From the IMG/VR virus record IMGVR_UViG_3300029288_000174, positions 1,263-65,262 of that record: a stretch of DNA of 64,000 bases. One strand, written 5' to 3'. Position 1 is the stretch's first letter. Each line of letters begins with the position of its first letter. The position numbers were made by a program, and so were the translations under genes. The notes below the pieces were generated by a model. It did no database searches. It was not told the origin of the DNA and saw only the letters and a program-made list of their open reading frames with translations. Of this stretch, positions 1 to 41,541 are shown piece after piece. Source of the DNA: a virus (Duplodnaviria; Caudoviricetes).

Positions 1-168
1 TACTACGTCGGCTACAACGCGGATCGAACGGCGGAAGCGGCTTGGGCGGCTATCCGTCCGCAGGGTGGCGAGGCTGCCAATGGTTCCGTTCGTGGTTCCG
101 CTGGTTCCGAAAACACCAAAAAGGCGAGTCAACAAGAACACACAACCACAAGTGAAGAAAGCACTTAG
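1..168 (+). CDS. int: Tyrosine integrase, C-terminal fragment (5' end outside window)
   Basis: Frame 1 is open from base 1 to TAG at 166-168. YYVGYNADRTAEAAWAA resembles the catalytic-Tyr C-terminal helix of phage integrases. It lies directly beside a tRNA-derived att core. Confidence 0.7.
   Translation, partial: YYVGYNADRTAEAAWAAIRPQGGEAANGSVRGSAGSENTKKASQQEHTTTSEEST
81..109 (+). repeat. Integrase arm-type sites, left (TGGTTCCG x3)
   Basis: TGGTTCCG at 81-88, 93-100 and 102-109. Confidence 0.7.
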
Positions 169-175
169 AGCATTT

Positions 176-218
176 CGGGGCGTGGCGCAGTCTGGCTAGC
201 GCGTCTGAATGGGGTTCA
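176..218 (+). pseudogene. 5' half of tRNA-Pro(GGG), att core
   Basis: CGGGGCG acceptor 5' strand, D-arm GCGCAGTCTGGCTAGCGC, anticodon arm TCTGA-ATGGGGT-TCA. tRNA similarity stops at 218 and there is no T-arm or 3' acceptor strand. Confidence 0.85.
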
Positions 219-312
219 TGGCTATCCCGATCGTGCCTGCCGGTTTTCTCGCAAAAACATCACTGTTTCCGGTGTTTATCCTAGTCCGTCCTATTTGCCG
301 TTGTTCGTAAAT

Positions 313-11094: not shown

Positions 11095-14000
11095 TCATGC
11101 TTCCCCAATGTGGTGCGGAGTTAGTGAGTATTTCGAGCCGTCAACCAGTCCGCACGATTGCCAGTAATCGTCAATGATACATTCCAGTTTCTCTGGCACC
11201 ACGCCCGATGCGATGCAGAAACTGTATCGCCAATTATCGTCGCTGCCCTGCCAGCACCAATCGAACAGCAGGCGAATGATGCAAGCGTTCTGCCTGCCAA
11301 GATTCGGCGTTGCCGACACAGCAATGGGGTAATGCTCGTTGACCCAGTAGTGCGTTTGCCCCAACACGTTCGGCCGATATTCCTCATAGGTCTGCGGTAC
11401 GTTGGTGTAATTCTCTACCAGCCCGGCGGCAATCAGCCTGATGATCCATTCGCCGTTATCCTGGTCGATCTGGAACCAGTCTTTCGGCGTCATGTCGATG
11501 GTGGCGAACGTAAACCCGACGCCGGTAATGCTGGTGCTGGTGTTCCACGCAAAGGTGATTTCGCCGAACAGCACGCTCTCGCCTTGGATGTCGATGTACA
11601 GCAGGATGCTATCGGTAGACTGCGTGGCGAGTACGTTTAGGTCTGGGTGCTGGTTGATCTTGCGAACGAGGATATTGATGGTTGCCGCCAGCGTAGCTTG
11701 CACGGGCACCGTATCGTCCCCGGTGTCCTGGTCTGAGGCGACGAAGGTAAACGGGACCGGCTCGTCAAATCCATTGGCGATAGAGAACTGTTCACCCGCT
11801 TGTACCTGCGTGGTGGCCGCCTGCGAATTGGCCAAGTCCACGATTTGCATTTCCACGTCGTAAACGAGGATGCAGCTTTCATCCATCGGATCGTTGGGAA
11901 TGGCCCGCACGTTCAATACGTCGCTGTCGCATAGCTCATTGACTTGCGTCACGATGCCGCGAATCTTCTCAGTTTGATTGGCGGCAAGCTGGACGCTGGA
12001 GCCGTTGCTTACGCCCGATATAAACGTAATCGTGGCCGTGTGATCGTCGTCAACCTCAATAACAAACTCCGACCCAATCTGCGGTTCAATGACTTGCGTA
12101 GTGCTGTGTAATACGTCGTGGTACGTGAGCGTGCAACCATTGAACCAAGGCGCGATAACATACATGCGGCCCGCGTTACAGAACGTATCCCCGGCGGCCG
12201 TAACCACCGCTTGCATTACTTGGCCTTCCCACGGCAAATCAAAGTCAATCGCGTCGCACCACGCATCGGAGAAGGCAATTGGCGGCTGGTGCTTGATCGT
12301 GGTGAGGCCGATCATGTTGCCTTGCGGCTCTTGTTCCCAAGCGTGAATCTTGAATACCGGCTCTAGCAATCCCTCCTGTTTGCAAACGTCCGTCATAAAG
12401 GCCGTGTTGATGGCGTCGTGAATCGCTTCGATCTGGCGGATGTCATCGTCGATGATCGGAACGATAACGATTTCGGAAGCGGAGCCGGCCCCCAGCGTTG
12501 CGTCGCAGCCACCGTCCATTCCGTAAATCGTCAGCGGTTGCGTGGTGTCCATCGGGGCCGTCACCCACTCCTCGAATATCCGAGTGGTGAGGCTGGCGAC
12601 GATGGCAATGTTTCCTTGCGGGCCGATGTGCTGGTTGATTAGCGTGAGGCGGCTACTACGTGTCCCCGCTCTCCTAACGTCGATGTCCAAGTCCCTGTCT
12701 GGTTCGGTGCCGTTGGCCATCCCGGTAGCGACGATGAACTGCGACGAATAGCCCAACGGTACATTGTTGTCACCCAGCAGCAGATTCGTCAGGTCGCACG
12801 TGGTTTCAGGACCGCCGCCGACGGCCGCCGACATGTAGAAGTTGGGAGTGCCGTTGACCGCCGCAACCAAGTTTGCCGCAGCGGCGTCCACGTCGGCGCC
12901 CATATCCACTTCAATGTAGCCTTCGGGAACACCGCCGCCCGTCGAGAACTGGTAGTTTTTGGTGGTGAAGCCATCGTTGATAAACACCCGGTCGCCTTCG
13001 CTGACTTGATGCGTGAACCAAAACGATCCCGTCGAGTGTGTGCCGGACGTGGGATCGACGCCGCCGCTCATGCCAGTAGCGTAAATGGTGGCTGGGGTGC
13101 CCGATCCCACGCAATCCACGGTGATGTCATGGTTCCCGATGACGCCCGCGATGTTGTGCATCAGGCAGCACGTGCCGTCATTGTTGCCGAGCGAAGCCGT
13201 TACGCTGAGCGGGTTTGCGTTCGTGTTGACAGCTAAGATTAGCCGCTTGATCGTATCCTGTAGGTCGAAGCCGACCGCCACGCCCACGCGACTGACGGGC
13301 GTACCCGGCAATGACGATGATGGATCAAGCCCGCCGCTCATGCCGGTAATTGTAAAGCTGCCGCCAACGTGTTCGATGTCCACGTTTCCGGCTGCCAGCT
13401 TGCGGTCGTTCGTCAAGTGGACCGTGGCGTCGGCAAGGTACGTGTCTGGATCGGTGCCCGTACCGGACGCGATGGTGTCCGTCGAAGTAATATCTAGCAG
13501 GCGGCTTGTGTCGTTGATCGCAAAGGCCAGATTCGCCGCTGTTTCCTCTTTGTTTTCGCTACTGATCTCGACGGCCACATTTCCCGGCTGAGCGATGCCG
13601 TCGATAACCACAAACTCGAATGTGATCCAGGGATGCTTGGGGTTGCCATCCCACATTCGCAAGATCGTGCCGACGGTAGGCTGGCCGGTGAATTGGATTG
13701 TCCCCGTCGCGGCCGTGCCATCGTCGGTGAACTCGAATATCGAATCAAAGTGCGTTGGGATACCATCGTCGATGGTGATCGTGTCGCCCGGCTCGGGCTG
13801 TGCAGTGAATGTCAGTTTGCCTACCGCGTGCCGCCCGCTGGCTGAGTTGATTGCCGTTTCAATGGCCGCCGCCGTTTCGCTGTTGCCCCAGCCCAGCGTT
13901 ACACCGATGTTGCCCGGCGTAATATCATCGCCGCCGTCTTCGCCGTCCACCATACCGTAGACGATGATATTGTCACCCGTTGTGCTGATCGCCTGATTAC

Positions 14001-16770
14001 AAAGGGCAGACTTATGCAGACTGGTCAACACACAGAAGTCATCCGGCGGCACGCTGGCCGTTGCTGAGATGCCGATTCCCGTCAGGCCGTTAAGCTGGAA
14101 TACAAAGTTGGCCATCGTTTCCACGCGGTCGATGCCAATAACGACGCCGACGTTTCCAGACAACAATGAACCGCTTGGGCCGTCCAGTCCGCCGACCATC
14201 CCGAGAACCTCGAAGGGCGGCCCGGCGTCCGGGTCAGGGTCCGTGAAACTCGGCCCACCGAACTGAATCGCGTGATTGCCTACGGTGCTGGCGTGGATGT
14301 TGACCAGCAAGAACCAATCGACTTCGCCGTTTGCCGTCCCCGTTCCCGTGCCTGTCCCCGTGCCGGTGCCGGTGCCCACCAGCGAAAAGTCATCCGCCAC
14401 GATGTCCATATCGGCTGCGCTGTTGATGGCGTTGTAGAGGCTGGTGGCCGTGTCGCGTTGGGTCGCGCCGATAGGTATTTTGATGAACCTGTCCGACGCT
14501 ACGATACCGATGTCGCCGAATGAGAATGTTTTGCGAGTATGGATGCCATCGTCCAAAACAATGAAGTCACCGGCTCGCGGCTGATCGAATACCTTGACCC
14601 AACCGTGGGCCGACGTGCCTGTTGTGAGTTCCAGCGTGAGTTGCTTGCGGCCGTCGTGGAGCGTAATCGTATCGCCGGATGCCGGGTTGTCGATAAACTG
14701 GACCGTGCCCCATGATGCCCGGCCTTGGTCAAACTCAAACGTAACGGGGCCGTGGCCGGTCACGCCGTCGGCCAGTCGGAACCAGTCGCCGTCGGCGGGC
14801 GGATACTCGACGGTGATCGAACCGCGTGCGGGAGCGCCGTTGCCGACGAATTGGAACGTAGCAACGCACCCGTTGCTGTCGTTCATTTCCCAGCTAACGC
14901 CGTCGCGGATTGGTAGAATCCACCGCTGGTAGGTCGGGTTGGAATTTCCCTCCCCGTCGATTTCGTCGTGGAAATCGAAGTAGTAGAGGGAGCGTTGGTA
15001 AGTGGGCGTGACTCGCAGTTCCCAGTAGTCGATGTCTGCCGTGCCGCATCCTGTGTCTAGGCATTCATTTTCCAGATAACCCTGCGCGTTCGTGTTCCCC
15101 ATCGACGCGCCATAGCAGTTTTGGCAGTCGGCGTAGCTCGCTCTCTTTATCAAGTTGACTTGGGCGTAGGAGTTAGTGAAGTCGGCGGAATGGCCGGTGT
15201 CGAGGCCGGTTGACCACGTGGGGTCGAACGGCAGCAGTTGATTGATTTGGTCGGATGTCGGCTTGATGGCCCCCGGCACCGACCACGATTTCTGATAGGT
15301 CAGCACGCGCCAACGCGGTTCGGCCCCTAGCGGCCCGAGAATATAGGACAGGTCTGCACCGGTAACATAGACCTGAATCAGCGTGTCAATGCACCCAGTG
15401 CCGCGTGTCGGATTGTTGACCCATGACCAACGCCAGCCGAAGTAGCTCGGGAACGGGGCAATACAGCTTGTTGGCTTGGCGTAGAACATCGCCGTATTGA
15501 GGTAGCGATAATTCACCGTGACTTGATCGTGCTGCGGATCGACTTCCATCGGTGACTGCGCCAGAGTGCAATAGCATTCCTCGGGGCTGGTGATACCGAC
15601 GAAGTTGACTTGAGCACAACAGATTCCATACGAAGGGATGTCGATGTCGGCCAGATTGTTGTCGCAAAACCGCTCCGGTGGGAAGCAGCAATCCATTCGC
15701 GGTTGCCGACGTTTCGACCACGAAATGCCGTAAGTGTAGTCGAGATAGTACCACCCATTAGGAAATGCCGGCTCGCCCGTGCATGGCTTTGTCTCACCTC
15801 GGCAGTCGTAGTTGTAGTTCCACGGCATCAACGGGCCGGGGTCGCCGTGCGGGTAGCCTTCCGCAGTGTAGTAGAAGTTCTCCCAGCAGCAGTCGAACGC
15901 ATCGTACTTGGAGCATTCGCCAGTCCAGCACGGCTGTTCGGACAGCAGATTTGGCGCGGGCGGGTCATACCAACCGGGAATTTCTGGTGCCAGCAAAACT
16001 TGCCCGTAGCCGCAACATGACCAACACCACGGATAGGGATTGTCGCCCAGCCATGCGTCCTTGACGCATTGCGGTATCCCATTTGGATAGCTGGAAATTA
16101 CGTAGACGCCGTGCTGTTGCGAAATGGAACCGCTTTGCAATGACGGCAGTGTTTCGTAGACCTCAAAATATCCAACCACCGGATCATCCGTGGCGATGGT
16201 GTAGCGATAGTTGTCGCAGCCAGTGAACCACGTCCGACGAAACTCAGTGGTATAGCCGGGTCCATAGGGGCTGCCGTCAAACGTGTACACGTCTCCATAG
16301 GGTGCTGAACTGTGAACCAGATTCCCCTGGTAGACGCCGGTGAACAAGTTGCCTTTCGAGGGCTGGCAGGGTGGGCTTGGACATTGGTAAACATCTTCGT
16401 ACCCTGACACCACTACCCAAATGCTGAGCGGTATCGAATCACCACCAAAGGCTGAGATGCAACTATCGGGGTCGCTGGGGTCTTCTTCAATCCAGCAGGT
16501 TTCAATGTACTCCTGCGATTCGGGGTCGTTGGGGTCGTAGAGAGGATTCAGTTCATACCAACACTCAAACCACTCGTTGTAGTCGGCATACCAAAACAGC
16601 GTACCGACCGCCTCGCACGTGCGGATGTTGGTCTGGTAGTAGCAGAGCGAACCCCAGAAGCTGTAAAGCGGAATTGATAGCAGCAATTCAAAGACACTCT
16701 TGAACCGCCGCCCGCTCGCGTGCGGTGGCGTGAATGCGTGTCGGAGAAGTCTGCGGAGTAGGTTCAACAT
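11095..16770 (-). CDS. Giant (1,891 aa) putative tail fibre/adhesin with Cys-rich N-terminus and nested repeat domains
   Basis: TAATG-coupled start at 16770, downstream of the tape-measure and tail-tip genes. Recurrent G.I.F..QP..GD.I.I.DG....FEF / V.IG....TA..L..AIN / L.N...G..GN..I / GM.GG modules. Confidence 0.75.
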   Translation of the reverse strand: MLNLLRRLLRHAFTPPHASGRRFKSVFELLLSIPLYSFWGSLCYYQTNIRTCEAVGTLFWYADYNEWFECWYELNPLYDPNDPESQEYIETCWIEEDPSDPDSCISAFGGDSIPLSIWVVVSGYEDVYQCPSPPCQPSKGNLFTGVYQGNLVHSSAPYGDVYTFDGSPYGPGYTTEFRRTWFTGCDNYRYTIATDDPVVGYFEVYETLPSLQSGSISQQHGVYVISSYPNGIPQCVKDAWLGDNPYPWCWSCCGYGQVLLAPEIPGWYDPPAPNLLSEQPCWTGECSKYDAFDCCWENFYYTAEGYPHGDPGPLMPWNYNYDCRGETKPCTGEPAFPNGWYYLDYTYGISWSKRRQPRMDCCFPPERFCDNNLADIDIPSYGICCAQVNFVGITSPEECYCTLAQSPMEVDPQHDQVTVNYRYLNTAMFYAKPTSCIAPFPSYFGWRWSWVNNPTRGTGCIDTLIQVYVTGADLSYILGPLGAEPRWRVLTYQKSWSVPGAIKPTSDQINQLLPFDPTWSTGLDTGHSADFTNSYAQVNLIKRASYADCQNCYGASMGNTNAQGYLENECLDTGCGTADIDYWELRVTPTYQRSLYYFDFHDEIDGEGNSNPTYQRWILPIRDGVSWEMNDSNGCVATFQFVGNGAPARGSITVEYPPADGDWFRLADGVTGHGPVTFEFDQGRASWGTVQFIDNPASGDTITLHDGRKQLTLELTTGTSAHGWVKVFDQPRAGDFIVLDDGIHTRKTFSFGDIGIVASDRFIKIPIGATQRDTATSLYNAINSAADMDIVADDFSLVGTGTGTGTGTGTGTANGEVDWFLLVNIHASTVGNHAIQFGGPSFTDPDPDAGPPFEVLGMVGGLDGPSGSLLSGNVGVVIGIDRVETMANFVFQLNGLTGIGISATASVPPDDFCVLTSLHKSALCNQAISTTGDNIIVYGMVDGEDGGDDITPGNIGVTLGWGNSETAAAIETAINSASGRHAVGKLTFTAQPEPGDTITIDDGIPTHFDSIFEFTDDGTAATGTIQFTGQPTVGTILRMWDGNPKHPWITFEFVVIDGIAQPGNVAVEISSENKEETAANLAFAINDTSRLLDITSTDTIASGTGTDPDTYLADATVHLTNDRKLAAGNVDIEHVGGSFTITGMSGGLDPSSSLPGTPVSRVGVAVGFDLQDTIKRLILAVNTNANPLSVTASLGNNDGTCCLMHNIAGVIGNHDITVDCVGSGTPATIYATGMSGGVDPTSGTHSTGSFWFTHQVSEGDRVFINDGFTTKNYQFSTGGGVPEGYIEVDMGADVDAAAANLVAAVNGTPNFYMSAAVGGGPETTCDLTNLLLGDNNVPLGYSSQFIVATGMANGTEPDRDLDIDVRRAGTRSSRLTLINQHIGPQGNIAIVASLTTRIFEEWVTAPMDTTQPLTIYGMDGGCDATLGAGSASEIVIVPIIDDDIRQIEAIHDAINTAFMTDVCKQEGLLEPVFKIHAWEQEPQGNMIGLTTIKHQPPIAFSDAWCDAIDFDLPWEGQVMQAVVTAAGDTFCNAGRMYVIAPWFNGCTLTYHDVLHSTTQVIEPQIGSEFVIEVDDDHTATITFISGVSNGSSVQLAANQTEKIRGIVTQVNELCDSDVLNVRAIPNDPMDESCILVYDVEMQIVDLANSQAATTQVQAGEQFSIANGFDEPVPFTFVASDQDTGDDTVPVQATLAATINILVRKINQHPDLNVLATQSTDSILLYIDIQGESVLFGEITFAWNTSTSITGVGFTFATIDMTPKDWFQIDQDNGEWIIRLIAAGLVENYTNVPQTYEEYRPNVLGQTHYWVNEHYPIAVSATPNLGRQNACIIRLLFDWCWQGSDDNWRYSFCIASGVVPEKLECIIDDYWQSCGLVDGSKYSLTPHHIGEA
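14335..14376 (-). repeat. (Gly-Thr)n run in the giant fibre
   Basis: About seven GT dipeptides encoded with mixed codons (GGC/GGG/GGA; ACC/ACG/ACA). Confidence 0.85.
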
Positions 16771-17639
16771 TATGACAACAAGCACGGTGCCCCAACAACG
16801 AAGAACTTTCTCGCATTCGGCCAGTAGTCAACGATGACCGGCGTAAAAGGCGGAATCGTCTGGCCTGGTGCCAACAGGTGATCGTGGGCCGTTTTGATTG
16901 TCAGCCCGGCACTATTGATAAGCAGCGCCACGGCCGCCGATTGGCCGTAAGGCATTCCGCCGCGGCGCATAATGAAGCCTGGAAAACTCAACTGCTGCGA
17001 CATGCGATGCGTTATCATCACGTACTTAGGGCCACCGACTAGCCCTTCGTAGCCGTTGGTGTCGGAGTAGCCGTCCACGGCCACGGATGAACACTGAACA
17101 ATGTCACCGGCCCACGCGGGTAGTTGCAGGCTCGGGTCGATAACAATCACCGTCGAGGTTGTATTGACTTGACCTTCTTCGGGGTCGTATAGAAATCCGG
17201 CGTCCAGCAGTTCCAGCGGATTAGCCAAGGATGAATAGGTGTCATCATCCATGTCCCGCAGCATCAGGTAATAGTTCGTGCTGACGGAACCGCCCGCGAC
17301 GGCCAGCCACTTGCCGAACTTGTCGCGGTTCACCTGGAACCAGCCGCTGGTAATGGCGGTTGCCGAGAGGTTGTAAATCGCTCGCATGATGCCGGCGGAA
17401 ATCAGCGTTGGTACGCCGGTCACTTCGACGATCTTGTAAATGTCGCACTCCGCTTGGCCCGGCGTGGTGCCGCTTAACGCCGGTAGGCCGCCGCTCGGAG
17501 CCTGAGCCACGTACACATCCGGCGTCTGGCCCGGTAGACTGAGGCTCGTTGACGCAGCTCTATTTTGTGGACGGGCACGCCACTGGGCGAGGATGCGCCG
17601 CAAGTCGCGATGGTCTTCCTCAGTCAGAAATTTGGCCAT
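16770..17639 (-). CDS. Tail-tip region protein, paralog B
   Basis: Shares PD(V/I)YVA...C/ADxYKIV...WFQ(V/I)NRDKFG(K/R)WL and RMSQQL.FPG with 17639-19000. Confidence 0.7.
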   Translation of the reverse strand: MAKFLTEEDHRDLRRILAQWRARPQNRAASTSLSLPGQTPDVYVAQAPSGGLPALSGTTPGQAECDIYKIVEVTGVPTLISAGIMRAIYNLSATAITSGWFQVNRDKFGKWLAVAGGSVSTNYYLMLRDMDDDTYSSLANPLELLDAGFLYDPEEGQVNTTSTVIVIDPSLQLPAWAGDIVQCSSVAVDGYSDTNGYEGLVGGPKYVMITHRMSQQLSFPGFIMRRGGMPYGQSAAVALLINSAGLTIKTAHDHLLAPGQTIPPFTPVIVDYWPNARKFFVVGAPCLLS

Positions 17640-19000
17640 TACCGACACCCCGCATGGTTGCCGTACCACTGAGCTAGGTTTGACCAATGGGTCGCCAGAA
17701 ACTTGGTGCCTGTCGGAATGCACTGGGGCGACGTGGAGGCCGGAATCAGGTAATTGAGAATCGCGTGCTTTCTGCTTTCCTCCATTACCGGAAATACCAA
17801 CTCTTCATTTTCTTCGTCCCAGCCTATTGTGTCGGTGTAAACCGTAGAAATCGGCGGCACGGCCCCGATGACGTACTGACACTCCGGCCCGCAATACTCG
17901 ATAAGGTCGCCGCACATCGGGCCGCCAAGCACGCCGGGAAACCGCAACTGCTGCGACATCCGGCTGGTGAGCCGGCAGAACTTTCGTTGCCCGGTACTTG
18001 GCGCCAGCCCTAGCGGGTCTTCGATACCGGCTTCACCACCCGCCATGCCGCTGACCAGCACGCGGTCTTCGCAACTGGAAACGATTGGCTTGTTGCCCCA
18101 CGGCCCGTAGACTAGATTGATAAGGTGGACCGTGTTGACGGCACCCAGCTCGGCATAGATGAACAGATTCAGGTCCAAGTCCACGGCATAAATGAAACTG
18201 TTCACAATCGTCGCCAGCGGCGTTGGGTCGGCAATGTCCGGCAACGCCACCTTGATATTCCCGTTCGCCAAAAGCTGGCCGTTAGCAACGCCCAACTCGT
18301 TATCATCAAACTCGAATATCGTCGAGGGGATGTGCCCGCCATCGTCCAGGATGATTTGCATTCCGTCCAGCGGCAATTCGTAGAAGGTAATGTCGCCGGT
18401 CGGCGGGGTGCCAGCGAATCGTGTTTCCTCTTCGGCAATAACGATGTCGCCACGCCAACACGGAGACATCGTTGACACGTCTACGATTATGACAGTAGTG
18501 CCTACTGTGACCTCTCCGTCGAACGAGTCCACCCAGCGGCCATCAACCATCGCCACCGGATTCGCTCGACCCATCGGCAGGTACATGGGATTCCCGGCCT
18601 GCGCCTCCATATCGTCCAAGACCTTGAAAAACGACACGCTCGCGCTTCCGGTTGCCACCAGCCAGCGGCCAAACTTGTCGCGGTTGATTTGGAACCACGT
18701 ATCCGGCTGGATGGCATTGGCGGAAATGTTGTACACGTCCCGGTCGGTTCCCGCCTGAATCAGCGTTGCCGCCCCGGTTTCGTCCGGCACGATCTTGTAC
18801 ACGTCGGCCTTGGCCCGGCTCGGCACGCCACCAGCAGCACCGTCCAGCGTTTGGCCGTCTTGCAGCTTGGCGACATAGATGTCCGGCGTAACGGTTTCCT
18901 GCTGAGGTGTCTCGGGCTGTTGGGGATTGAACTCGCCCGCCCGGTACGACTTCACCAGCCGTTGCAATTCGTGTTGATCTTTCTCACTGAGGTAGAACAT
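17639..19000 (-). CDS. Tail-tip region protein, paralog A, with one inserted fibre-type module
   Basis: Paralogous to 16770-17639; internal TGDITF...LDDGG....IFEFD...GNIKV...LINLVYGPWGNKPI...SGMAGG. Confidence 0.7.
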   Translation of the reverse strand: MFYLSEKDQHELQRLVKSYRAGEFNPQQPETPQQETVTPDIYVAKLQDGQTLDGAAGGVPSRAKADVYKIVPDETGAATLIQAGTDRDVYNISANAIQPDTWFQINRDKFGRWLVATGSASVSFFKVLDDMEAQAGNPMYLPMGRANPVAMVDGRWVDSFDGEVTVGTTVIIVDVSTMSPCWRGDIVIAEEETRFAGTPPTGDITFYELPLDGMQIILDDGGHIPSTIFEFDDNELGVANGQLLANGNIKVALPDIADPTPLATIVNSFIYAVDLDLNLFIYAELGAVNTVHLINLVYGPWGNKPIVSSCEDRVLVSGMAGGEAGIEDPLGLAPSTGQRKFCRLTSRMSQQLRFPGVLGGPMCGDLIEYCGPECQYVIGAVPPISTVYTDTIGWDEENEELVFPVMEESRKHAILNYLIPASTSPQCIPTGTKFLATHWSNLAQWYGNHAGCR

Positions 19001-19002
19001 AG

Positions 19003-19458
19003 CTAGCGCGGCATGAGGCAGAGCGAAGCACGGATATTGCCGTGGAGACTGCGAATTGACAGGCGGCTTGCATTGCGTGGCACGGCCCGCATGGATTCGC
19101 CCGGCATGATAAGCCAACTGGCGTCGGAATCGTTTGCATCGAAGGCCACCTGGATAATCCGCTGGGCCAGCTCACTCGCCTCCGCTGGCGTTGGGATTTT
19201 GCCCGGCGTGTCGCCTTCTTTGTTGCGAATCAGCAGCAGGCCGGGGTTGTTGACCCAGCCGCAATCCAAGGCCATCCATTTTTCCGTGATAAGCAGTTCG
19301 CGGATGTAGGGCTGTTCGTCGCTGTTGAGTTTGCGACTGCAACGGGTGACAAACTCAACCGGCTCCCCTCCCTGCCGCTGATGGTAGACGTGTTCGACGA
19401 TGGTAACGCGATTTCGAGACGCGGGGCTTTCCGCCGTGATAGTCTTTGCGCCCAGCAT
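19003..19458 (-). CDS. Hypothetical tail-region protein
   Basis: 151-aa ORF within the late operon. Confidence 0.55.
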   Translation of the reverse strand: MLGAKTITAESPASRNRVTIVEHVYHQRQGGEPVEFVTRCSRKLNSDEQPYIRELLITEKWMALDCGWVNNPGLLLIRNKEGDTPGKIPTPAEASELAQRIIQVAFDANDSDASWLIMPGESMRAVPRNASRLSIRSLHGNIRASLCLMPR

Positions 19459-24600: not shown

Positions 24601-27081
24601 TTATCCGAATACGTTGGCCATCGCGTGCGGACTGGTAGCCGTGCTTGGTATGCTGTAGTTTTTCCATGTCCCGGTTGTGCCGCGTCGAACTCGATAGGAA
24701 CAGCCGGTAGGCAGATTTGCAAACGTGACCAGTCCGGCAGCGTCACTTACTTCGCTGCGGGTTGCGGCGTCGTAGCAGGCGCCAGTCCCCGCCACGTTGA
24801 TGATTTGGAGTTGCACGGTCACGCCGCTTTCGACAACACCTTGCGTGCTGTAGCAGTACAGATAGCCGGTAACGAAGCCAGCCTCGCTGTCGGGAAGGGT
24901 GACGGCCGATACCGCGTAGGTATGCGACGTATCGGCAGATACGGCCAGCGTGGTTGGCGTGAAGCTGCAACCCGAAGCAGTGATTGACACGGCCCACGTA
25001 CCATCATCGACGGAGAAGGTAACAACGCCGGATGCGTTGGTGGCCCCCACGTAGGATTCCGCGCCTTTGGTCAGGCGTACCGTGGCGTTTTCGACAGGAT
25101 TCGTGCCATCGGTTACGGTGATCGTGACGGTACGCGCCCCAGTGCCGAGCAATGCGGTTCCAATCGCGTTCGCCAGCGTGGTCCGCTCTCCACTGGTCAG
25201 CGCCATTGCGTCGCCAGCCCTGGCTGGTGCGTAGTTCGGCTGTGTTGCGGCCAGCGTCACGTCGCCTGTCTGGCCACCGTATCCGTCTGGTGCGACGGTC
25301 GGCAGCGTCACGGCCACGGATCGCTGTTGGTAGTCGGTGGGTATTGTCGCCCCGTCCAGTCCAGCCACGTCAGCGGCGATGGTGTCGAGGGTGGTCTTGT
25401 CGGCCACCGTTCCCGGCACTCGACTTAGCAGCGTGGAGATGTTCGTTCCGAGCGATGCGACGGCCGACGCTACTTCATCCTCGGTCAGCACGGCCGTCCC
25501 CGCGATTCCGTTGGCAGCACCGAAGAACGCCGACGCCGCCACCAATGCCGCATCCCCAGTGTCCCAATGTGCTTCGTCCTCCGGCCCAGCGTTCGGCAAC
25601 CGAAGGTCGCCAACAATGTCATCAACCGTTTTGCCGTATCGCAGGTCAGTGGTCACAAGATCGTCCGTTCCTGTCGCCGTCCCAATGTTTGACGCGCGGA
25701 GCGTGCCGGTCTCGCCGTCGCCACGATCAACGCCGTATCTAACGTCGCCAACAGCCGCTAGCGGATAGGCGTTGGCCTCGTTTGTTGTCCACCCGCCAGC
25801 TACAGACGTACTATTGGCCAGCCAGGCAGCAATCAGGTTGGCGCGCGTTTCCGGCGAAACCGTTGTCCCGAGGATATACCCGCTGCCACTTCCTGCCAGG
25901 CTATACTCGTTCTCGTCGAACACTAAATGGCCGGTGCTGTCGGCGGTTTCGGCCGAAATTGCAAGGGCGGTCCCGGTGGTGACAAAACGATTTGACGTTA
26001 CCGAGACGTTTTTGCAGAGCTTGTTGGAGTCGGCATCGTTGGCGTAGACGCGAATCCCCTTTGCCCCCGCTCCGCTCACGTACACGCGGTTTCTGAAATA
26101 GCTGGCCTCCGTCACGCCCTTGACGATCAGGCCGGTGGAGGTCGTGGATTCCGCGTAAATGTCGTTGTCATAGACCTGATAGCCTGTGCCCCACTTGCAA
26201 ACAATCGCCATCCCGCCACTGCCGGCCGCTCCCGTGTGGACCACATTTCTCCTGCACACAACGCCATCGCCATCGAGCATCAATACGTGCATTGACCCAG
26301 TGCTGCTTATCGTGATGTCCTCCACGATGACATTCGTGTTGCGAGCGGATTTTGTATCGCCGCTATTGCCAACGGACACGGACATATCCGTCCCGCTCCA
26401 CGTTCCGCCCGATACCCGCACCACATTTGCCGGTCCCCTGAACCACACACCCTTGCCAACGAATGTACCGTTGCAATCCACCACGCGCACGTTGCTCATG
26501 GTGCCAGTCGATCCAGAGCCAAGCATAACGGCATAGTCAATGCTATTAGGAGTCAGGAACGTGCATCGCGTGAACAACAGCGATGTGACAACCGCCGTTG
26601 ATGCGTGTTGAACCAGTCGCCCGGTGCCATTCGCGTTCGTCAGCGTACAATCGCGCATCTCAAACCCGGTGAGTGCCTGTTCGGCGAAATAGAAGCACGT
26701 AGATATGCTGGTTGGCGCAAACGTGCAATTTTCAAATCTCCAGTTCGATCCGGCAGCCGAATAGTGTCGGATTAGCGAGCCGCCGGTCCCCGCGCCAGTG
26801 ATCGTAAATCCGCTCTGGTAATCGCCCGGGTTGGTGACGGGTTGGATTACCACGGTGCCTGCTGCATTCAGGCGATTGAGATTCAGGTACGCTGCTGGAG
26901 TGAGCGTTTTGCCATTCGTAACTTTGATGTAGCATGATACTCCGCTGCCGTCTGCGACTGCCGTGTTGTCGCATGTGGTCATAGCCTTGCCGAGCGATGC
27001 CCACGGGGTCGCGGGTGACTGCGCCTGCGCTTCGCTGTTGGAATCGCTTCCGGTGTCTGGATCAACGTAATAGGTTTTCAT
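24601..27081 (-). CDS. Right-handed beta-helix (pectin-lyase-like) protein with C-terminal carboxypeptidase-regulatory-like domains
   Basis: YYVDPDTGSDSN...PWASLGKA start, repeated CTF/NVIVEDITI/RNRVY strands, TNPVENATVRL...TNASGVVTF. Confidence 0.7.
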   Translation of the reverse strand: MKTYYVDPDTGSDSNSEAQAQSPATPWASLGKAMTTCDNTAVADGSGVSCYIKVTNGKTLTPAAYLNLNRLNAAGTVVIQPVTNPGDYQSGFTITGAGTGGSLIRHYSAAGSNWRFENCTFAPTSISTCFYFAEQALTGFEMRDCTLTNANGTGRLVQHASTAVVTSLLFTRCTFLTPNSIDYAVMLGSGSTGTMSNVRVVDCNGTFVGKGVWFRGPANVVRVSGGTWSGTDMSVSVGNSGDTKSARNTNVIVEDITISSTGSMHVLMLDGDGVVCRRNVVHTGAAGSGGMAIVCKWGTGYQVYDNDIYAESTTSTGLIVKGVTEASYFRNRVYVSGAGAKGIRVYANDADSNKLCKNVSVTSNRFVTTGTALAISAETADSTGHLVFDENEYSLAGSGSGYILGTTVSPETRANLIAAWLANSTSVAGGWTTNEANAYPLAAVGDVRYGVDRGDGETGTLRASNIGTATGTDDLVTTDLRYGKTVDDIVGDLRLPNAGPEDEAHWDTGDAALVAASAFFGAANGIAGTAVLTEDEVASAVASLGTNISTLLSRVPGTVADKTTLDTIAADVAGLDGATIPTDYQQRSVAVTLPTVAPDGYGGQTGDVTLAATQPNYAPARAGDAMALTSGERTTLANAIGTALLGTGARTVTITVTDGTNPVENATVRLTKGAESYVGATNASGVVTFSVDDGTWAVSITASGCSFTPTTLAVSADTSHTYAVSAVTLPDSEAGFVTGYLYCYSTQGVVESGVTVQLQIINVAGTGACYDAATRSEVSDAAGLVTFANLPTGCSYRVRRGTTGTWKNYSIPSTATSPHAMANVFG

Positions 27082-35356: not shown

Positions 35357-36523
35357 CTACGCCGTGGTGGCGTGACAGATTCCGCAGTTGCCGTTGTAGT
35401 CGCTGCGGAGTTGCGGAACTTGGATGGCCATCACCTTGAAGTTCAGTTGCATTCCGCCCTTGCTCTCCCACTGGACCGTGGTGATGTCCATGCCGTTGAC
35501 GGCGCGGGCCACGTCGCTGGTCATCTGGACGAAGATCAGCGTGAACGTGTCGGAGAGGAAATCGAGTTGGCGAACGTCTTGGATTCCCTCGATGGCCCGC
35601 AATCGCTGCCGCAGCGTTTGCGTCGGTGCCGTTGCGCCGGACGTGGACAAGACGTAGTAGTCGTTGTCCAGGTACTGCGCCCAGTCTGGCGAATGGTAGA
35701 CCATGAACGGTCCGTAGAACTTTTTGTCAGCCATCAACTTGATGATTGCCAAAAAGTCGGTCACGGTCTTGTCCGGGTTGGCGCCGGTGGGCACCGTCAC
35801 ATCGGTTTTGATAACACGATCAGGGTGATTCGTGTATCCAAACACCGTCGGGGCGTTGCTGTAGTCGGACGCCTTGCCGTAAGTGACGCCGGTCTCGACG
35901 CCGATCAGCGTCTTTTCGATCATTTCGGCAACACGTCGGCCAGCGGCTTCGGCCATCGTGGTGTCCAGCGGCGTCCCGCTGTTCCGGCTCACCGCCATGC
36001 GGCGACTGGAAAACTGGAAGTCGCTATGAGTGATCGGCAGAGGCAGTCCCTCAAGCTGATACTTGGGGCTGTCGGTGCGGCCTTCGGTCAATCCGTCCAT
36101 GTCCACCACGGCCTCGCCGGGGTCAGACATGGTTTCATGCTCCAGGATCATCTTGGCCATGCCGTTGAACCCGCCAAACGTATTGGCGGCGGCCAAGTCG
36201 GACCACGCCTTTAGTCGCTGCCGTGCGGCTCGCAGGACCACCCGGTCAAGCTCGATCCATTCCTGCTTTCGCAGGCTGGTGGCATTGAAGACCGGGCTGA
36301 AAATGCCATTTTCCATGAGATTGGAAATCAGGCAGTTTTCGTAAACCGGCGCATACATGCCGGTCTTTTCGTTGAACGCCATGCGTCCGGTGTTGACGGT
36401 CGCACACTTGCGACCATTGTCGTCAACGTAAGGCCGAAGCAGGCCGGGATCAAAGCGGCAGTTTCCCAACATTTGAGCAACGTCGCCGTGCCCTTGTCCG
36501 TTGAGGATGAAGTCCGTGAACAT
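35357..36523 (-). CDS. Major capsid protein (HK97-fold, encapsulin/Linocin-like)
   Basis: Position after scaffold and decoration; EWIELDRVVLRAARQRL, PLPITHSDFQFSSR, VFGYTNHPDR, FKVMAIQVPQLRSD. Confidence 0.85.
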   Translation of the reverse strand: MFTDFILNGQGHGDVAQMLGNCRFDPGLLRPYVDDNGRKCATVNTGRMAFNEKTGMYAPVYENCLISNLMENGIFSPVFNATSLRKQEWIELDRVVLRAARQRLKAWSDLAAANTFGGFNGMAKMILEHETMSDPGEAVVDMDGLTEGRTDSPKYQLEGLPLPITHSDFQFSSRRMAVSRNSGTPLDTTMAEAAGRRVAEMIEKTLIGVETGVTYGKASDYSNAPTVFGYTNHPDRVIKTDVTVPTGANPDKTVTDFLAIIKLMADKKFYGPFMVYHSPDWAQYLDNDYYVLSTSGATAPTQTLRQRLRAIEGIQDVRQLDFLSDTFTLIFVQMTSDVARAVNGMDITTVQWESKGGMQLNFKVMAIQVPQLRSDYNGNCGICHATTA

Positions 36524-38890: not shown

Positions 38891-40006
38891 TTATTTCGCG
38901 TCGAGTATGCTTTCGGGACGATCGTCGTCGATCGTTACTCCTGCCCCACTCCAATTACTCCGGTCCCGCTGTTCGGCCAGTGTTCGCTTGGCCGGTGCCC
39001 TCGCCATCAGGCTTTCCTTGATTGATTCCCTGATGTCGCGTGGCTCGCGCGTTTGCCCCTTCTTCGGTTCCCCTACGTTCGCGGGGGTCCATGCGCAGCG
39101 GCAGCGCGGGTGCCTTGGCAACATGCCTCGGGCCTCTTCTATGGTCAATACGACGGTTTCCAGCGATGAACATTCCTCGCATACTTTTTCATCACCAGCC
39201 GTCAGCCACTCGACCATGACACCCACTTCCTCGACCCCCATTTCTTCCAGGGCGTCAAGCTGGCCCTCGGCGTGGCAACGAATGATTTCCGTGCGGGCGA
39301 TAACGTCGGCCCGCGTGCGGTCGATGCCGTCAACCACCTTGGCGATGGTCCGGCCGATGTCGCGTGGACTCTGCCCTTGTACCAGCCCGTCGGCCAGCGT
39401 GCGGGTGAGCTTCGTTGACATGCTCTCCGTCACGCCCTTCAGTTCCGTGAAGACGCGGCCAGCCAGCAGCTTGACTTTCTCGACAGCCACCGGGCGGGCA
39501 AAACTACTCCGCAAAAACTCTTCTTTCGTGCCACGATAGAAGCCCCGCGTGCTGTCATCCTCGGCGTATCCCTTCGCGTAGGGCTTGCGAGCGTCATCGA
39601 AGGCCCGACCGGCCCCCTTCGCGTATCCGTCTTGCACGTACCGCACAAACCATTGATCGGACAAATCGGCAATTCGATCCTCGATGATGTCGAGGGCGAT
39701 TTGCGACCTCAGCCACTTGCGGAATGCCTCGACCTTCTTAAACGACGAATCGGGATCGAACAGGCCCGCGTTATCGGTCACGTTGAACGCCAATCGCGGC
39801 CCGATCCCCAACGCATCATCCTCAACGATCAACTTTAGCATCGCACGCTTCAGCCGCGTGAACCGCCGGTTCAATTCGGCGGTGAACTGCCGCCGGATCG
39901 TTCCGGTTCGCGTCGGATCGACCCGCAGCGGGTTCGGCTTGCGGGCGTTGCGAACGGTCGAATTGTGGCAAAGACAGCTTGGCATGGTGTCGATTCCTTG
40001 CGTCAC
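38891..40006 (-). CDS. Minor head protein (Mu F / SPP1 gp7-like)
   Basis: RADVIARTEIIRCHAEG, VEWLTAGDEKVC..C, PRHPRCRC. Confidence 0.9.
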   Translation of the reverse strand: MTQGIDTMPSCLCHNSTVRNARKPNPLRVDPTRTGTIRRQFTAELNRRFTRLKRAMLKLIVEDDALGIGPRLAFNVTDNAGLFDPDSSFKKVEAFRKWLRSQIALDIIEDRIADLSDQWFVRYVQDGYAKGAGRAFDDARKPYAKGYAEDDSTRGFYRGTKEEFLRSSFARPVAVEKVKLLAGRVFTELKGVTESMSTKLTRTLADGLVQGQSPRDIGRTIAKVVDGIDRTRADVIARTEIIRCHAEGQLDALEEMGVEEVGVMVEWLTAGDEKVCEECSSLETVVLTIEEARGMLPRHPRCRCAWTPANVGEPKKGQTREPRDIRESIKESLMARAPAKRTLAEQRDRSNWSGAGVTIDDDRPESILDAK

Positions 40007-41541
40007 GGCGTTGTTGGCGGTTGCGGGGTTCCGTCACCATCCACGGCTGGCGGCAGCGGATCTGCGTTGGCGTCGGTCCCGCCGCCCGTCAGTGCATCGT
40101 GAATATCGCCGGCGTCTTTGTCTTCCTTCCGCAGCATGTCGAGCGTGGACTCCAAAATCTGCCGTGCCTCGGTATCGGGAATACCCAGTATCCTGGTCAG
40201 GAAGTAGAGCGGCGTAATCAGCGACTCGACGCCACCCTGTACGTACTTGACCAGAGCGTCCGTTCTGGATACCGCCACCGTGGCCTGCTCTTGCAGCGTC
40301 AGGCGTTCGGTGTCCGACCACACGACGGAATACTGGTCCGGCGCTGGAAGCACCCCGAGCGATATCAGTCGGTCCACCAGCGGGACGATCAGCCGTGACG
40401 TGAGATAGCGATTACGCCGCGACTGGAGCCGGTCACTCCACGCCTGAGCGTCTTGCGTGCTGGCCAGTTCGCCCCGTTCGCTACCCAAAAATATTCGCTT
40501 GGGGACGCCCCGATTGATGCAAATGGCGTCGAGGTGGACATTGATCTGCGGCGTTGGGTCAACCACCGTAGGGGACAGCGTTTTGGCCGTCATTCCCATC
40601 AGCGACAAGTATCGCTGCAAGCCGTTCATGTAGTTTTCCATCGTGTCTTGCAACGCACTCTGGTCGATGGCCACGTCGCCGCCTAACTGCGGGTGCGTTT
40701 CCAAGCTGACGCCGGGGAAGGCACCACGCCAGTACATTTCGGCCGACCCACCGTAGAGCTTGCGTAGGTCCATGAGCCGATTGAACACCGGCCGCATCCT
40801 CGGCACGCCGAAAATCTCACTGCTGCCAAGGTCGCCAGCCACGTGAATCACTCGGGTCCAGTGAACATTCACAGTGGCGGTTTGCGCTCCGATGCCGCCC
40901 TTGTTGCCGTCGGACGGATCGGACAGGGACACCTGATACATCGTCGGCTGGCCGTACCGTGGGCTGTTTTTGTCGGTCTCGTAACTGAGAATCGGTGCCA
41001 TCGCTTCGTCGAACGGCCGCAAGTACAGTAGCTTGCGAGTTGGCGATTGCTTTTCGCCCAGTTCTGCCGGTTGGTCGAGTGGCTTCCCATCGTCGATCCC
41101 CATCAACAAGATGCCGTAGCTGCCGATCCCGCTCAGTTCGTCGAGACGACATAGGTAATCCCACAACGGGTTCTGCTCGCCCTCCGCCTGATACCAACTC
41201 TTGCCCCGCAGCGAATTGCACACTGCATCGAATGTCTGCTCGAATGGCGTTTCTGTATCGACATCCTCATCCTCATAGACTTCCGGCAGCACCTTCCACG
41301 ATTCGTGGGGCATGATGGCGACCACCTGGGCCGCAACCGGGTCGCGGTCGTACCAGTCGCGGTACTGTTGCGGCGTGATGTTGGCCGTGTCAGGGTAGCC
41401 GCACTCTTGATCGTAGTCGCGTCGCGGGTCGATCAGCTTTTGCAGCAGTTGCGACCGCGACGAAGAGGCGTTGTCAACAATCTCGCGGAACTGATTCAGT
41501 GCGATGGGGTCGGTAAACGCGAAGCCGCCAGTCGTTGCCAT
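40003..41541 (-). CDS. Portal protein (DUF1073/anti-CBASS Acb1-like family)
   Basis: Follows terL; LSGIGSYGILLMG, HWTRVIH, GVPKRIFLGSERGELAST. Confidence 0.85.
   Translation of the reverse strand: MATTGGFAFTDPIALNQFREIVDNASSSRSQLLQKLIDPRRDYDQECGYPDTANITPQQYRDWYDRDPVAAQVVAIMPHESWKVLPEVYEDEDVDTETPFEQTFDAVCNSLRGKSWYQAEGEQNPLWDYLCRLDELSGIGSYGILLMGIDDGKPLDQPAELGEKQSPTRKLLYLRPFDEAMAPILSYETDKNSPRYGQPTMYQVSLSDPSDGNKGGIGAQTATVNVHWTRVIHVAGDLGSSEIFGVPRMRPVFNRLMDLRKLYGGSAEMYWRGAFPGVSLETHPQLGGDVAIDQSALQDTMENYMNGLQRYLSLMGMTAKTLSPTVVDPTPQINVHLDAICINRGVPKRIFLGSERGELASTQDAQAWSDRLQSRRNRYLTSRLIVPLVDRLISLGVLPAPDQYSVVWSDTERLTLQEQATVAVSRTDALVKYVQGGVESLITPLYFLTRILGIPDTEARQILESTLDMLRKEDKDAGDIHDALTGGGTDANADPLPPAVDGDGTPQPPTTP

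What the first reader, a model, noticed from the sequence alone, without database searches (positions are those of the whole stretch)
12250..14930. Russian-doll architecture: homologous domains nested inside each other in the giant fibre
One ~120-aa module has parts A (G.I.F..QP..GD.I.I.DG...FEF), B (GNV.V.IG....TA..L..AIN) and C (L.N...G..GN..I...GM.GG). The parts appear not as tandem ABC repeats but in nested order: A1 (~14840) A2 (~14712) [A3 B3 C3, 14610-14180] B2 C2 (to ~13935) B1 (to ~13830) A4 [A5 B5 C5, 13715-13320] B4 C4 (to ~13055) [A6 B6 C6, 13040-12705] C1 (to ~12500). A further B-like segment follows, possibly closing an outer domain. This is what repeated insertion of a domain into surface loops of its own copies would produce. 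It predicts a branched (dendritic) rather than linear appendage. Nested insertion is known for sheath proteins and flagellin outer domains, but a self-nested tree of six copies in a phage fibre is unusual. Boundaries are approximate.
Basis: partly seen in the sequence, partly recalled or inferred. Interest (0 to 1): 0.82.

Follow-up and report, generated by a model that had tools for sequence, protein, structure and literature searches.

The report
Self-nested domains in phage tail protein
A giant phage tail protein holds at least six copies of one small surface domain, and three of them appear to be split open with further copies sitting inside their loops; the same recursive layout recurs across a large, unnamed family of phage surface proteins.

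Summary
In the 1896-aa product of window 11095-16785 (-), a profile built only from the three contiguous copies recovers the other pieces. All pieces beat 500 shuffles except C1 (6/500) and the trailing "B-like" segment, which is not significant.

The module has no Pfam or PHROG family of its own. A profile search still finds 1173 protein clusters. Many of these show the palindromic pattern A^n ABC (BC)^n, up to depth 7, including tail sheath and baseplate proteins.

An AlphaFold2 model of aa 688-952 (pLDDT 84.9) contains two copies of one fold. One copy is contiguous. The other is assembled from segments on either side of it. Both match the insertion domain of contractile-tail sheaths (Z 9-10) and FliD D3.

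A homologue has B1 and C1 adjacent where this protein carries three extra domains.

The Russian-doll reading therefore holds. The branch point at D1 rests on sequence only, and the dendritic shape is untested. A depth-2 self-insertion of this fold is already known in a flagellin, so I rate this a striking new variant of a known kind.

The parts
11095..16785 (-). Gene for the 1896-aa giant tail-module protein (P0001). It starts at GTG; an ATG lies at codon 6.
   Evidence: ORF list and translation. No Pfam or PHROG hit. The Atlas holds the protein from residue 6.
14725..14829 (-). A1 (aa 653-687): N-terminal three-strand piece of the outer domain D1.
   Evidence: HMM positions 1-33. 0/500 shuffles reach its score. 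Family A-HMM E 1e-9.
14626..14712 (-). A2 (aa 692-720): N-terminal piece of D2.
   Evidence: In the model it packs with B2C2.
14182..14610 (-). D3 (aa 726-868): contiguous A3-B3-C3 copy, the innermost of the first nest. Its B|C loop holds a (Gly-Thr)7 stretch.
   Evidence: Full-length HMM match. Model range 35-39..176-186 matches Mu sheath 9khy_a with Z 9.0.
13936..14160 (-). B2C2 (aa 876-950): C-terminal two-thirds of D2.
   Evidence: HMM positions 41-125, 0/500 shuffles. Together with A2 it matches 8kee_A residues 91-184 with Z 10.0, rmsd 2.3 A and 91 aligned.
13834..13923 (-). B1 (aa 955-984): strand plus helix piece of D1.
   Evidence: HMM positions 39-66, 0/500 shuffles. It lies within the HSP colinear with P0002 (P0001 aa 104-991 vs P0002 aa 31-839).
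13720..13827 (-). A4 (aa 987-1022): N-terminal piece of D4, the first token of the block inserted between B1 and C1.
   Evidence: HMM positions 1-37, 0/500 shuffles.
13324..13710 (-). D5 (aa 1026-1154): contiguous A5-B5-C5 copy inside D4.
   Evidence: Full-length HMM match.
13054..13302 (-). B4C4 (aa 1162-1244): C-terminal part of D4.
   Evidence: HMM positions 43-125, 0/500 shuffles. B4 alone is weak (E 0.0065); C4 has E 1e-8.
12703..13035 (-). D6 (aa 1251-1361): contiguous A6-B6-C6 copy. It is a sibling of D4 in the B|C loop of D1.
   Evidence: Full-length HMM match.
12508..12648 (-). C1 (aa 1380-1426): proposed closing piece of D1, carrying a 16-aa internal insert.
   Evidence: Weak by HMM (6/500 shuffles; first half E 2e-4). 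It aligns to the C part of 15 lone-domain relatives. It is positionally orthologous to C1 of P0002.
12397..12480 (-). Trailing B-like segment (aa 1436-1463). It is conserved with P0002, but I could not show it to be a B.
   Evidence: 121/500 shuffles reach its score. Family B-HMM score is -3.2. It is part of the alignment to P0002.
11611..11814 (-).
   Evidence: Profile positions 8-76, E 7e-5. P0002 has a counterpart at aa 1013-1061.
17639..19117 (-). Neighbouring 492-aa gene that holds one contiguous copy of the same domain. The shorter paralogue at 16770-17723 lacks it.
   Evidence: Profile positions 2-115, E 5.6e-8. The paralogue alignment shows about 150 extra residues.

Best explanation
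The region encodes six copies, plus a seventh degenerate one downstream, of an alpha/beta 'insertion domain' of about 105-140 aa. Its fold is that of the outer insertion domain of contractile-tail sheaths and of FliD D3.

The domain's two ends lie side by side. It tolerates foreign sequence at two loops: A|B, after the third strand, and B|C, after the helix. Whole copies of the domain have been inserted into these loops of earlier copies.

The resulting last-in-first-out parse is: D1 = A1...B1...C1. D1 carries D2 in its A|B loop, and D2 in turn carries D3. D1 carries D4 (which holds D5) and then D6 in its B|C loop.

The chain therefore runs outward through successive A pieces and returns through the BC pieces. 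Each simple nest should form a monomeric out-and-back stack of globular domains. D1 is a three-way branch point.

By analogy with sheath insertion domains and flagellin outer domains, the assembly is most likely an outward-projecting, non-catalytic surface decoration or adhesion array on a tail-distal virion protein.

What is shown in silico: the token order, the family-wide recurrence, the fold, and a discontinuous D2 around D3.

What is inferred: the D1, D4 and D6 topology, the insertion mechanism, the shape and the function.
For: 1. The token order was recovered by an HMM built only from the contiguous copies, and each fragment hits the correct HMM part. Family part-HMMs confirm it.

2. The domain family is large: 1173 clusters at E<=1e-3. 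Many independent members show balanced palindromic words. Depth reaches 7 in P0003 and P0010 (several B tokens of P0010 go undetected), about 5 in P0004 (one B token undetected), 4 in P0007, and 3 in tail sheath P0009. About a dozen members are two-level. Under a strict parser, 19 of 151 are well-formed nested words and 51 are plain single or tandem copies. A second nest type that uses the B|C loop (A B [ABC] C) occurs in P0031 and P0036; P0103 has a related two-step word with its outermost C undetected.

3. AlphaFold2 of aa 688-952 used an alignment whose 16 rows align one-to-one with the query's two-level nest and gave mean pLDDT 84.9 and pTM 0.64. Of 50 listed matches out of 48,161 PDB representatives, every range falls in one of two classes. 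One is the inner copy at 35-37..159-202. The other is 1-4..256-265 with 64-97 residues aligned (148 in the FliD D2+D3 row). The top row is 8kee_A residues 91-184: Z 10.0, rmsd 2.3 A, 91 of 94 residues aligned. B2C2 has only about 75 residues, so at least 16 aligned residues must come from A2. FliD's own D2+D3 nest (9m67_A, residues 71-268) aligns 148 residues across both domains.

4. P0001 is colinear with P0002 up to B1 (31% identity, E 3e-84). Its C1, trailing segment and following motif align to P0002's C1 and flank with score 107, against shuffles of 30.5 +/- 5.9. So aa 985-1379, which form a balanced block of three domains, lie between pieces that are adjacent in the homologue.

5. The same domain sits as a lone insert in one of two neighbouring paralogues. 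It also sits at the insertion-domain position of tail sheath and baseplate proteins.

6. [quoted passage not shown]
Against: - The first, larger model (aa 640-1470, mixed-architecture alignment) was poor beyond aa ~1000 (pLDDT ~30). Its match ranges (11..307 and 49..228) imply A1 with B2C2 and A2 with B3C3, one register off the last-in-first-out parse. I attribute this to two-level relatives being laid over a three-level query, but I could not verify that.
- Because all A pieces and all BC pieces are homologous, AlphaFold cannot choose partners from covariation.
- No coordinates, PAE or contacts were available. Discontinuity is inferred from first and last aligned residues and from aligned lengths.
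- C1 and B4 are weak by HMM.
- A test for co-inheritance of A and BC similarity was uninformative.
- 81 of the 151 relatives parsed fail the strict parser. By inspection of the strings I judge most of these to be missed tokens, but I did not prove it.
- Function and oligomeric state are entirely inferred.
Confidence: 0.75

Rival explanations
1. Two independent repeat arrays. The A segments form a repeat structure of their own, such as stacked hairpins. The BC segments are separate small domains. No domain is discontinuous.
For: Runs of A followed by runs of BC look like two tandem arrays. Unbalanced words such as AABC or AAABC occur among relatives, although these may be missed tokens.
Against: - Lone-domain proteins always carry A, B and C together.
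- A and BC counts are equal in many independent proteins, up to 7:7.
- In the confident model, A2 plus B2C2 superpose on a contiguous 94-residue sheath domain with Z 10.0 and 91 aligned, which is more residues than B2C2 holds.
Confidence: 0.05
2. Intermolecular complementation. The protein is an oligomer, as tail fibres usually are, and A pieces of one chain complete BC pieces of a neighbouring chain. The subunits would then be interdigitated rather than each forming its own nest.
For: The gene sits in the tail-fibre position, and fibres are typically trimeric (general knowledge). Monomer predictions cannot see swapping. The two models disagree on register, which shows that the A pieces are interchangeable.
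Against: - Sheath proteins with the same nest (P0009, P0012) carry it at the position of a monomeric insertion domain.
- Linkers between successive tokens are only about 5-12 residues, which suits an intramolecular out-and-back path.
- The solved flagellin and FliD nests are intramolecular (PDB rows).
Confidence: 0.1
3. The domains are discontinuous but in another register, shifted or crossed.
For: A partial A-like element lies upstream (aa 632-649, E 0.08).
Against: - A shifted register leaves the innermost A and the outermost BC unpaired in words with equal counts.
- A3-B3 has the normal intradomain linker.
- The higher-confidence model built on an architecture-matched alignment gives only last-in-first-out ranges.
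- Differences between homologues are balanced blocks.
Confidence: 0.07

Closest known systems
Flagellin outer domains D4/D5 of G. thiophilus (cryo-EM; PMC11532411)
   Same: The domain has a FliD-like fold. A duplicate of it sits inside a loop of its parent copy, which is the same principle of self-nesting.
   Different: That case has depth 2, a single insertion, and lies in a flagellin. Here there are three levels, two insertion loops, six or seven copies and a phage tail-module protein. Relatives reach depth 7.
Insertion domain (InD) of contractile-tail sheath proteins (A-1(L) 8kee, Mu 9khy, Milano, Sf14, PhiTE, XM1, E217)
   Same: This is the best structural match for both D2 and D3 (Z 9-10, rmsd 2.3-2.8 A, 91-106 aligned). 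Sequence relatives of the module are themselves sheath proteins that carry it at that position. The XM1 InD was already likened to FliD D3 (PMC10457771).
   Different: The solved sheaths matched here each align through one contiguous stretch (chain ranges of about 94-117 residues). This protein has no sheath core and multiplies the domain recursively.
Flagellar cap FliD D2-D3 (5H5V, 5FHY, 9M67) and H. pylori FliD (6IWY)
   Same: D3 is an insertion into D2. The two-domain nest aligns as a unit (148 residues, Z 6.4), and D3 alone aligns with Z 7-8. Burroughs et al. 2007 linked FliD, FlgK and FlgL domains to Mu-like phage tail proteins (PMC1949818).
   Different: There is no detectable sequence similarity. 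FliD is an axial cap protein with helical D0/D1 domains. Its nest is shallow and fixed.
T4 gp18 sheath (domain I inside II inside III; cited from my own knowledge, not tested here), T4 gp11 finger domain and T7 gp12 nozzle domain
   Same: T4 gp18 shows Russian-doll insertion in a phage tail protein. T4 gp11 (1el6 residues 81-189, Z 7.6) and T7 gp12 (6r21 residues 146-247, Z 7.0) share the fold.
   Different: The nested gp18 domains are not homologous to each other. Gp11 and gp12 each align through a single stretch.

Membership tests
Sheath-InD / FliD-D3-like insertion domain (structural class; no Pfam model found) | A compact alpha/beta fold of about 95-120 aa, with several strands and one helix, that superposes on solved InD and FliD D3 domains. 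| tested here: met
   8kee_A residues 91-184: Z 10.0, rmsd 2.3 A, 91 aligned. 9khy_a: Z 9.0, 106 aligned. 5fhy: Z 8.1. These are the top rows among 48,161 representatives. The match is to a predicted model, not a solved structure.
Sheath-InD / FliD-D3-like insertion domain | It occurs as an insertion in a host domain, which requires adjacent N and C termini. | tested here: met
   There is a lone copy inserted in one of two paralogues. Copies lie between the N- and C-terminal sheath Pfam domains in P0012, and within the full-length sheath PHROG match of P0009. Adjacency of the termini itself was not measured because no coordinates were available.
Sheath-InD / FliD-D3-like insertion domain | Sequence homology to characterised members. 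| tested here: inconclusive
   A profile search against PDB sequences found nothing, and there is no Pfam hit. The only link is a weak match of PHROG tail-sheath profile phrog_165, positions 99-190, to the module in P0009 (E 8.7e-4).
Self-nested (duplicate-in-loop) outer domains, as in G. thiophilus flagellin D4/D5 | A copy of the domain lies inside a loop of a homologous copy, which makes the outer copy discontinuous. | tested here: met
   This is in silico only. D1 and D4 are supported by sequence and by comparison with the homologue.
Phage tail fibre / receptor-binding protein | Recognisable fibre or receptor-binding-protein domains, such as a collar, trimeric beta-helix, C-terminal chaperone or known receptor-binding domain. 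| tested here: inconclusive
   The whole protein has no Pfam or PHROG hit. The Atlas gave no usable hit. Only the gene's position after unannotated ORFs in the tail-distal part of the structural module suggests a fibre role.
Phage tail fibre / receptor-binding protein | Trimeric assembly and receptor binding. | not testable with these tools
   This needs biochemistry or cryo-EM.
Contractile tail sheath protein | Sheath core domains (Gp18_domIII_N, Phage_sheath_1C). | tested here: not met
   They are absent from P0001 but present in relatives P0012, P0030 and P0009.

The most novel reading that the evidence does not exclude
Recursive self-insertion of one insertion domain may be a general, grammar-like growth rule (A^n ABC (BC)^n, plus a second loop that allows branching). 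Phages would use it to build monomeric out-and-back stalks on sheaths, baseplates, neck and tail proteins, without the trimeric fibre architecture. In this protein the rule would yield a truly branched, tree-shaped appendage of six or seven domains on the virion.
Probability: 0.45. Interest if true: 0.8.

Novelty: new variant of a known kind. Interest (0 to 1): 0.66.

Why it matters
Domain insertion is common, but repeated insertion of a domain into its own copies is documented only at depth 2, in one flagellin.

Here the same fold shows balanced palindromic architectures up to seven levels deep in many independent phage proteins. In this gene it forms a branched tree that uses two different loops.

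If this is real, it has four consequences:
- It is a distinct way to make elongated or branched virion appendages from a single chain.
- It explains why these large proteins escape Pfam and PHROG annotation and tandem-repeat finders.
- It offers a natural, evolution-tested scaffold with two permissive loops for domain-insertion engineering.
- It defines an unnamed family of at least 1173 clusters that links sheath insertion domains, T7 nozzle and T4 gp11 domains, and flagellar FliD and flagellin outer domains.

Tried and rejected
- Self-BLASTP of the protein gave no off-diagonal HSPs. Profiles were needed.
- PDB sequence searches with the domain profile and with P0003 found nothing meaningful.
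- tblastn against 50,697 phage records gave no match.
- The ESM Atlas gave no usable hit for the N-terminal 600 aa.
- I searched for more orthologues of the N-terminal region in IMG/VR and JGI metagenomes and found none. P0002 is therefore the only orthologue for the insertion argument.
- Foldseek on the first 831-aa model found only weak FliD and sheath rows (E ~0.01).
- The first AlphaFold2 model (aa 640-1470) had mean pLDDT 62.9, left D4-D6 and C1 unmodelled, and gave a register one step off. I treat it as showing a discontinuous domain but not the pairing.
- Complex prediction with the three fragments A1 + B1 + C1 gave no verdict (score 0.02). This is no evidence either way.
- A Mantel-type test asked whether A-A similarity tracks BC-BC similarity under the proposed pairing. 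It gave r 0.27 and ranked 190 of 720 permutations, which is uninformative because the copies are too diverged.
A partial A-like element upstream (aa 632-649, E 0.08) makes an outermost D0 conceivable but unsupported.
- The idea of contiguous circularly permuted tandem domains is rejected, because three A segments lie in a row.
Full report
**What is there.** The finding lies inside one gene, window 11095-16785 on the minus strand. It encodes 1896 aa from a GTG, with an ATG at codon 6. The window is a phage or prophage structural module on that strand. Large terminase is at 42033-43610, portal at 40003-41541, a MuF-like head protein at 38891-40006 and the major capsid protein at 35357-36523. The giant gene lies near the distal end of that module. 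It follows two paralogous genes of unknown family and precedes a 284-aa ORF and a set of sugar-modifying genes. The whole protein has no Pfam or PHROG match. The assembly is a 2.5-Mb, 74%-complete MAG, and within it the module occurs only in this gene and one neighbour.

For an unbiased test I built an HMM from only the three contiguous copies (aa 726-868, 1026-1154, 1251-1361) and searched the protein. The fragments found were:
- aa 653-687 on HMM positions 1-33
- aa 692-715 on 2-26
- aa 877-950 on 41-125
- aa 956-983 on 39-66
- aa 987-1025 on 1-37
- aa 1167-1244 on 43-125

This reads A A [ABC] BC B A [ABC] BC [ABC].

Each fragment was then scored alone against 500 shuffles of itself. All exceed every shuffle except C1 (6 of 500 reach it) and the trailing B-like segment (121 of 500, not significant). 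Part-HMMs built from 129 full domains (P0001's own three contiguous copies among them) give the same order, with B4 and C1 the weak tokens. C1 aligns well to the C part of 15 lone-domain relatives once a 16-aa internal insert is allowed.

The word AAABCBCBAABCBCABCC is well-formed for a stack parser. Only 1428 of 17.15 million orders of these tokens are well-formed. Its parse tree is D1 -> (D2 -> D3) in the A|B loop, plus (D4 -> D5) and D6 in the B|C loop. A seventh, degenerate contiguous copy lies at aa 1658-1725.

**The module is a large unnamed family, and the palindrome recurs.** A profile of five contiguous copies, searched against 1.84 billion representative proteins, finds 1173 at E<=1e-3 and 317 at E<=1e-10. 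None of the 52 members scanned has a Pfam domain covering the module.

I parsed the listed hits together with P0001 (151 proteins) by HMM part. This shows plain single or tandem copies in 51 proteins. It also shows many balanced palindromic words:
- A^7(BC)^7 in P0003
- depth about 7 in P0010 (with several B tokens undetected)
- depth 5 in P0004 (one B token undetected)
- depth 4 in P0007
- depth 3 in P0009, P0013, P0101 and P0116
- about a dozen A ABC BC proteins

A second type, A B [ABC] C, uses the other loop (P0031, P0036); P0103 has a related two-step word whose outermost C went undetected.

Nineteen words are strictly well-formed nests. Eighty-one fail the strict parser. From reading the strings I judge most of these to be missed tokens, but I did not quantify that.

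Host proteins include tail sheaths (P0009, P0012, P0030) and a baseplate wedge/J protein (P0014), with the copies inside the core fold. P0003 sits between the head-tail adaptor and tail terminator genes of an E217-like myophage.

**Structure.** I ran two AlphaFold2 jobs.

The first covered aa 640-1470 with a 52-row alignment of mixed architectures. It was confident only for aa ~650-1000. Its best structural match already implied a discontinuous domain: cyanophage A-1(L) sheath residues 91-184, a contiguous 94-residue domain, aligned 90 residues at 1.9 A (Z 10.4) over a 297-residue span of the model. The ranges, however, ran from the start of A1 to the end of C2 and from the start of A2 to the end of C3. 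That is one register off. In that alignment most rows were two-level nests, and coverage at A3 dropped to 23 of 51 rows. Their innermost and outer pairings would therefore have been projected one step outward. I regard the register of that model as unreliable, but I could not prove the cause.

The second job was designed to discriminate between registers. It covered aa 688-952 (A2 A3 B3 C3 B2 C2). It used 16 rows, all aligned one-to-one with the query's two-level nest: 14 two-level nests, two nest strings missing one token, and the three-level homologue P0002. A last-in-first-out nest predicts match ranges of about 37..177 and about 5..259. A crossed pairing predicts 5..177 and 37..259.

The model had mean pLDDT 84.9 and pTM 0.64. 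In both the Foldseek-seeded and the exhaustive comparison, with 50 rows each, every range falls in one of two classes:
- 35-39..159-202 (mostly ..176-186), for example Mu sheath 9khy_a with Z 9.0 and 106 aligned, and FliD D3 5fhy with Z 8.1.
- 1-5..256-265, for example A-1(L) sheath 8kee_A residues 91-184 with Z 10.0, rmsd 2.3 A and 91 aligned. Other rows in this class are T7-like nozzle proteins, T4 gp11, FliC and the Bxb1 tail tip.

B2C2 has only about 75 residues, so a 91-residue match to a 94-residue domain must include A2. FliD's own D2+D3 nest aligns 148 residues across both domains.

In this model, then, D3 is a contiguous copy and D2 is a copy of the same fold assembled around it. I had no coordinates or PAE, so this is inferred from ranges and aligned lengths.

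**Comparative evidence for the branch point.** The only orthologue found, P0002 (1205 aa), is colinear with P0001 from the Cys/Trp-rich N-terminal region through B1 (aa 104-991 versus 31-839, 31% identity, E 3e-84). In P0002, B1 is followed directly by C1 and then by a conserved flank. In P0001 the segment C1 plus the same flank (aa ~1365-1488) aligns to it with score 107, against 30.5 +/- 5.9 for shuffles. The intervening aa 985-1379 are exactly A4 A5 B5 C5 B4 C4 A6 B6 C6, which is a balanced block of three domains. This is the best evidence that the B|C loop of D1 carries insertions. The structural model did not reach it.

Independently, the neighbouring gene 17639-19117 carries one contiguous copy (E 5.6e-8). 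Its shorter paralogue 16770-17723 lacks it (38% identity over the shared N-terminal ~200 aa).

**How it most likely works.** The fold is an insertion domain. It enters and leaves its host at one pole and has two permissive loops at the other. Copy-and-insert events into those loops give a chain that travels outward through A pieces and returns through BC pieces. A simple nest is therefore a single-chain stack of globules, not a trimeric fibre. D1 here is a three-way branch.

By analogy with sheath insertion domains and flagellin outer domains, the role is probably surface decoration or adhesion on the tail. That step is inference. 'Dendritic' is a topological statement for now.

**What is known.**
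- The XM1 phage paper already likened a sheath insertion domain to FliD D3 (PMC10457771).
- Burroughs et al. linked FliD, FlgK and FlgL domains to Mu-like phage tail proteins (PMC1949818).
- crAss001 gp36 has a FliD-like domain (PMC10172136).

The principle therefore exists at depth 2. What I did not find described is the recursion to 3-7 levels, the balanced-palindrome rule across a large phage family, or a branched six- or seven-copy tree. My literature searches were limited to the open-access library.

**Verdict.** The nested-insertion interpretation is supported, firmly at sequence level for all six copies and by a confident model for D2 and D3. Branching at D1 is supported only by sequence and by the orthologue. 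Shape and function are untested. I rate it a new variant of a known kind, of real interest to people who study protein architecture and phage structure.

Noticed in passing
window 16770-17723 (-) and 17639-19117 (-): These are two adjacent paralogous genes (38% identity over about 200 aa, E 3e-37, and a shared C-terminal motif). The longer one has about 150 extra residues that contain one contiguous copy of the same domain (E 5.6e-8). It is a clean natural example of the module as a lone insert.
   Followed up: yes
window 14332-14377 (-), aa ~804-817: An imperfect 6-nt DNA repeat encodes a (Gly-Thr)7 stretch in the low-confidence B|C loop of D3. D5 has a shorter Gly-Thr-rich loop at the same place. 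Glycosyltransferase genes lie just downstream of the structural module, so these Thr-rich loops might be glycosylation sites or length-variable. I did not test this.
   Followed up: no
window 14866-16665 (-), aa ~40-640: The N-terminal 600 aa are unusually rich in Cys, Trp, Tyr and Pro. P0002 is the only homologue found in any library. The last ~130 aa are also conserved with P0002 (E 8e-16). The N- and C-terminal regions may together form the base that carries the whole nest, as in flagellin, but I did not test this.
   Followed up: partly
P0002 has one counterpart (aa 1013-1061).
   Followed up: partly
L001 10001-13201 (P0003): A 1066-aa protein with a seven-level nest (7 A then 7 BC) lies between the head-tail adaptor (E217_gp27-like) and tail terminator genes of an E217-like myophage. 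This is a neck or head-proximal position rather than the tail tip.
   Followed up: partly
P0009, P0013, P0101 (metagenomic tail sheath proteins, ~870-890 aa): P0009 is a tail sheath protein (P0013 and P0101, of similar length and token layout, were not scanned) about 380 aa longer than the usual ~490 aa, because a three-level nest spans aa ~107-446, about where solved sheaths carry their insertion domain. This predicts tails with long radial spikes.
   Followed up: partly
window 52145-52217 (-): ARAGORN reports a tRNA-like gene with an undetermined two-base anticodon ('tc'). It is possibly a degenerate or unusual tRNA.
   Followed up: no
window 24601-27081 (-): An 826-aa protein with a right-handed beta-helix region (Pfam Beta_helix, E 1e-6) sits between the head and tail genes. 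It may be a depolymerase-like or tailspike-like protein.
   Followed up: no
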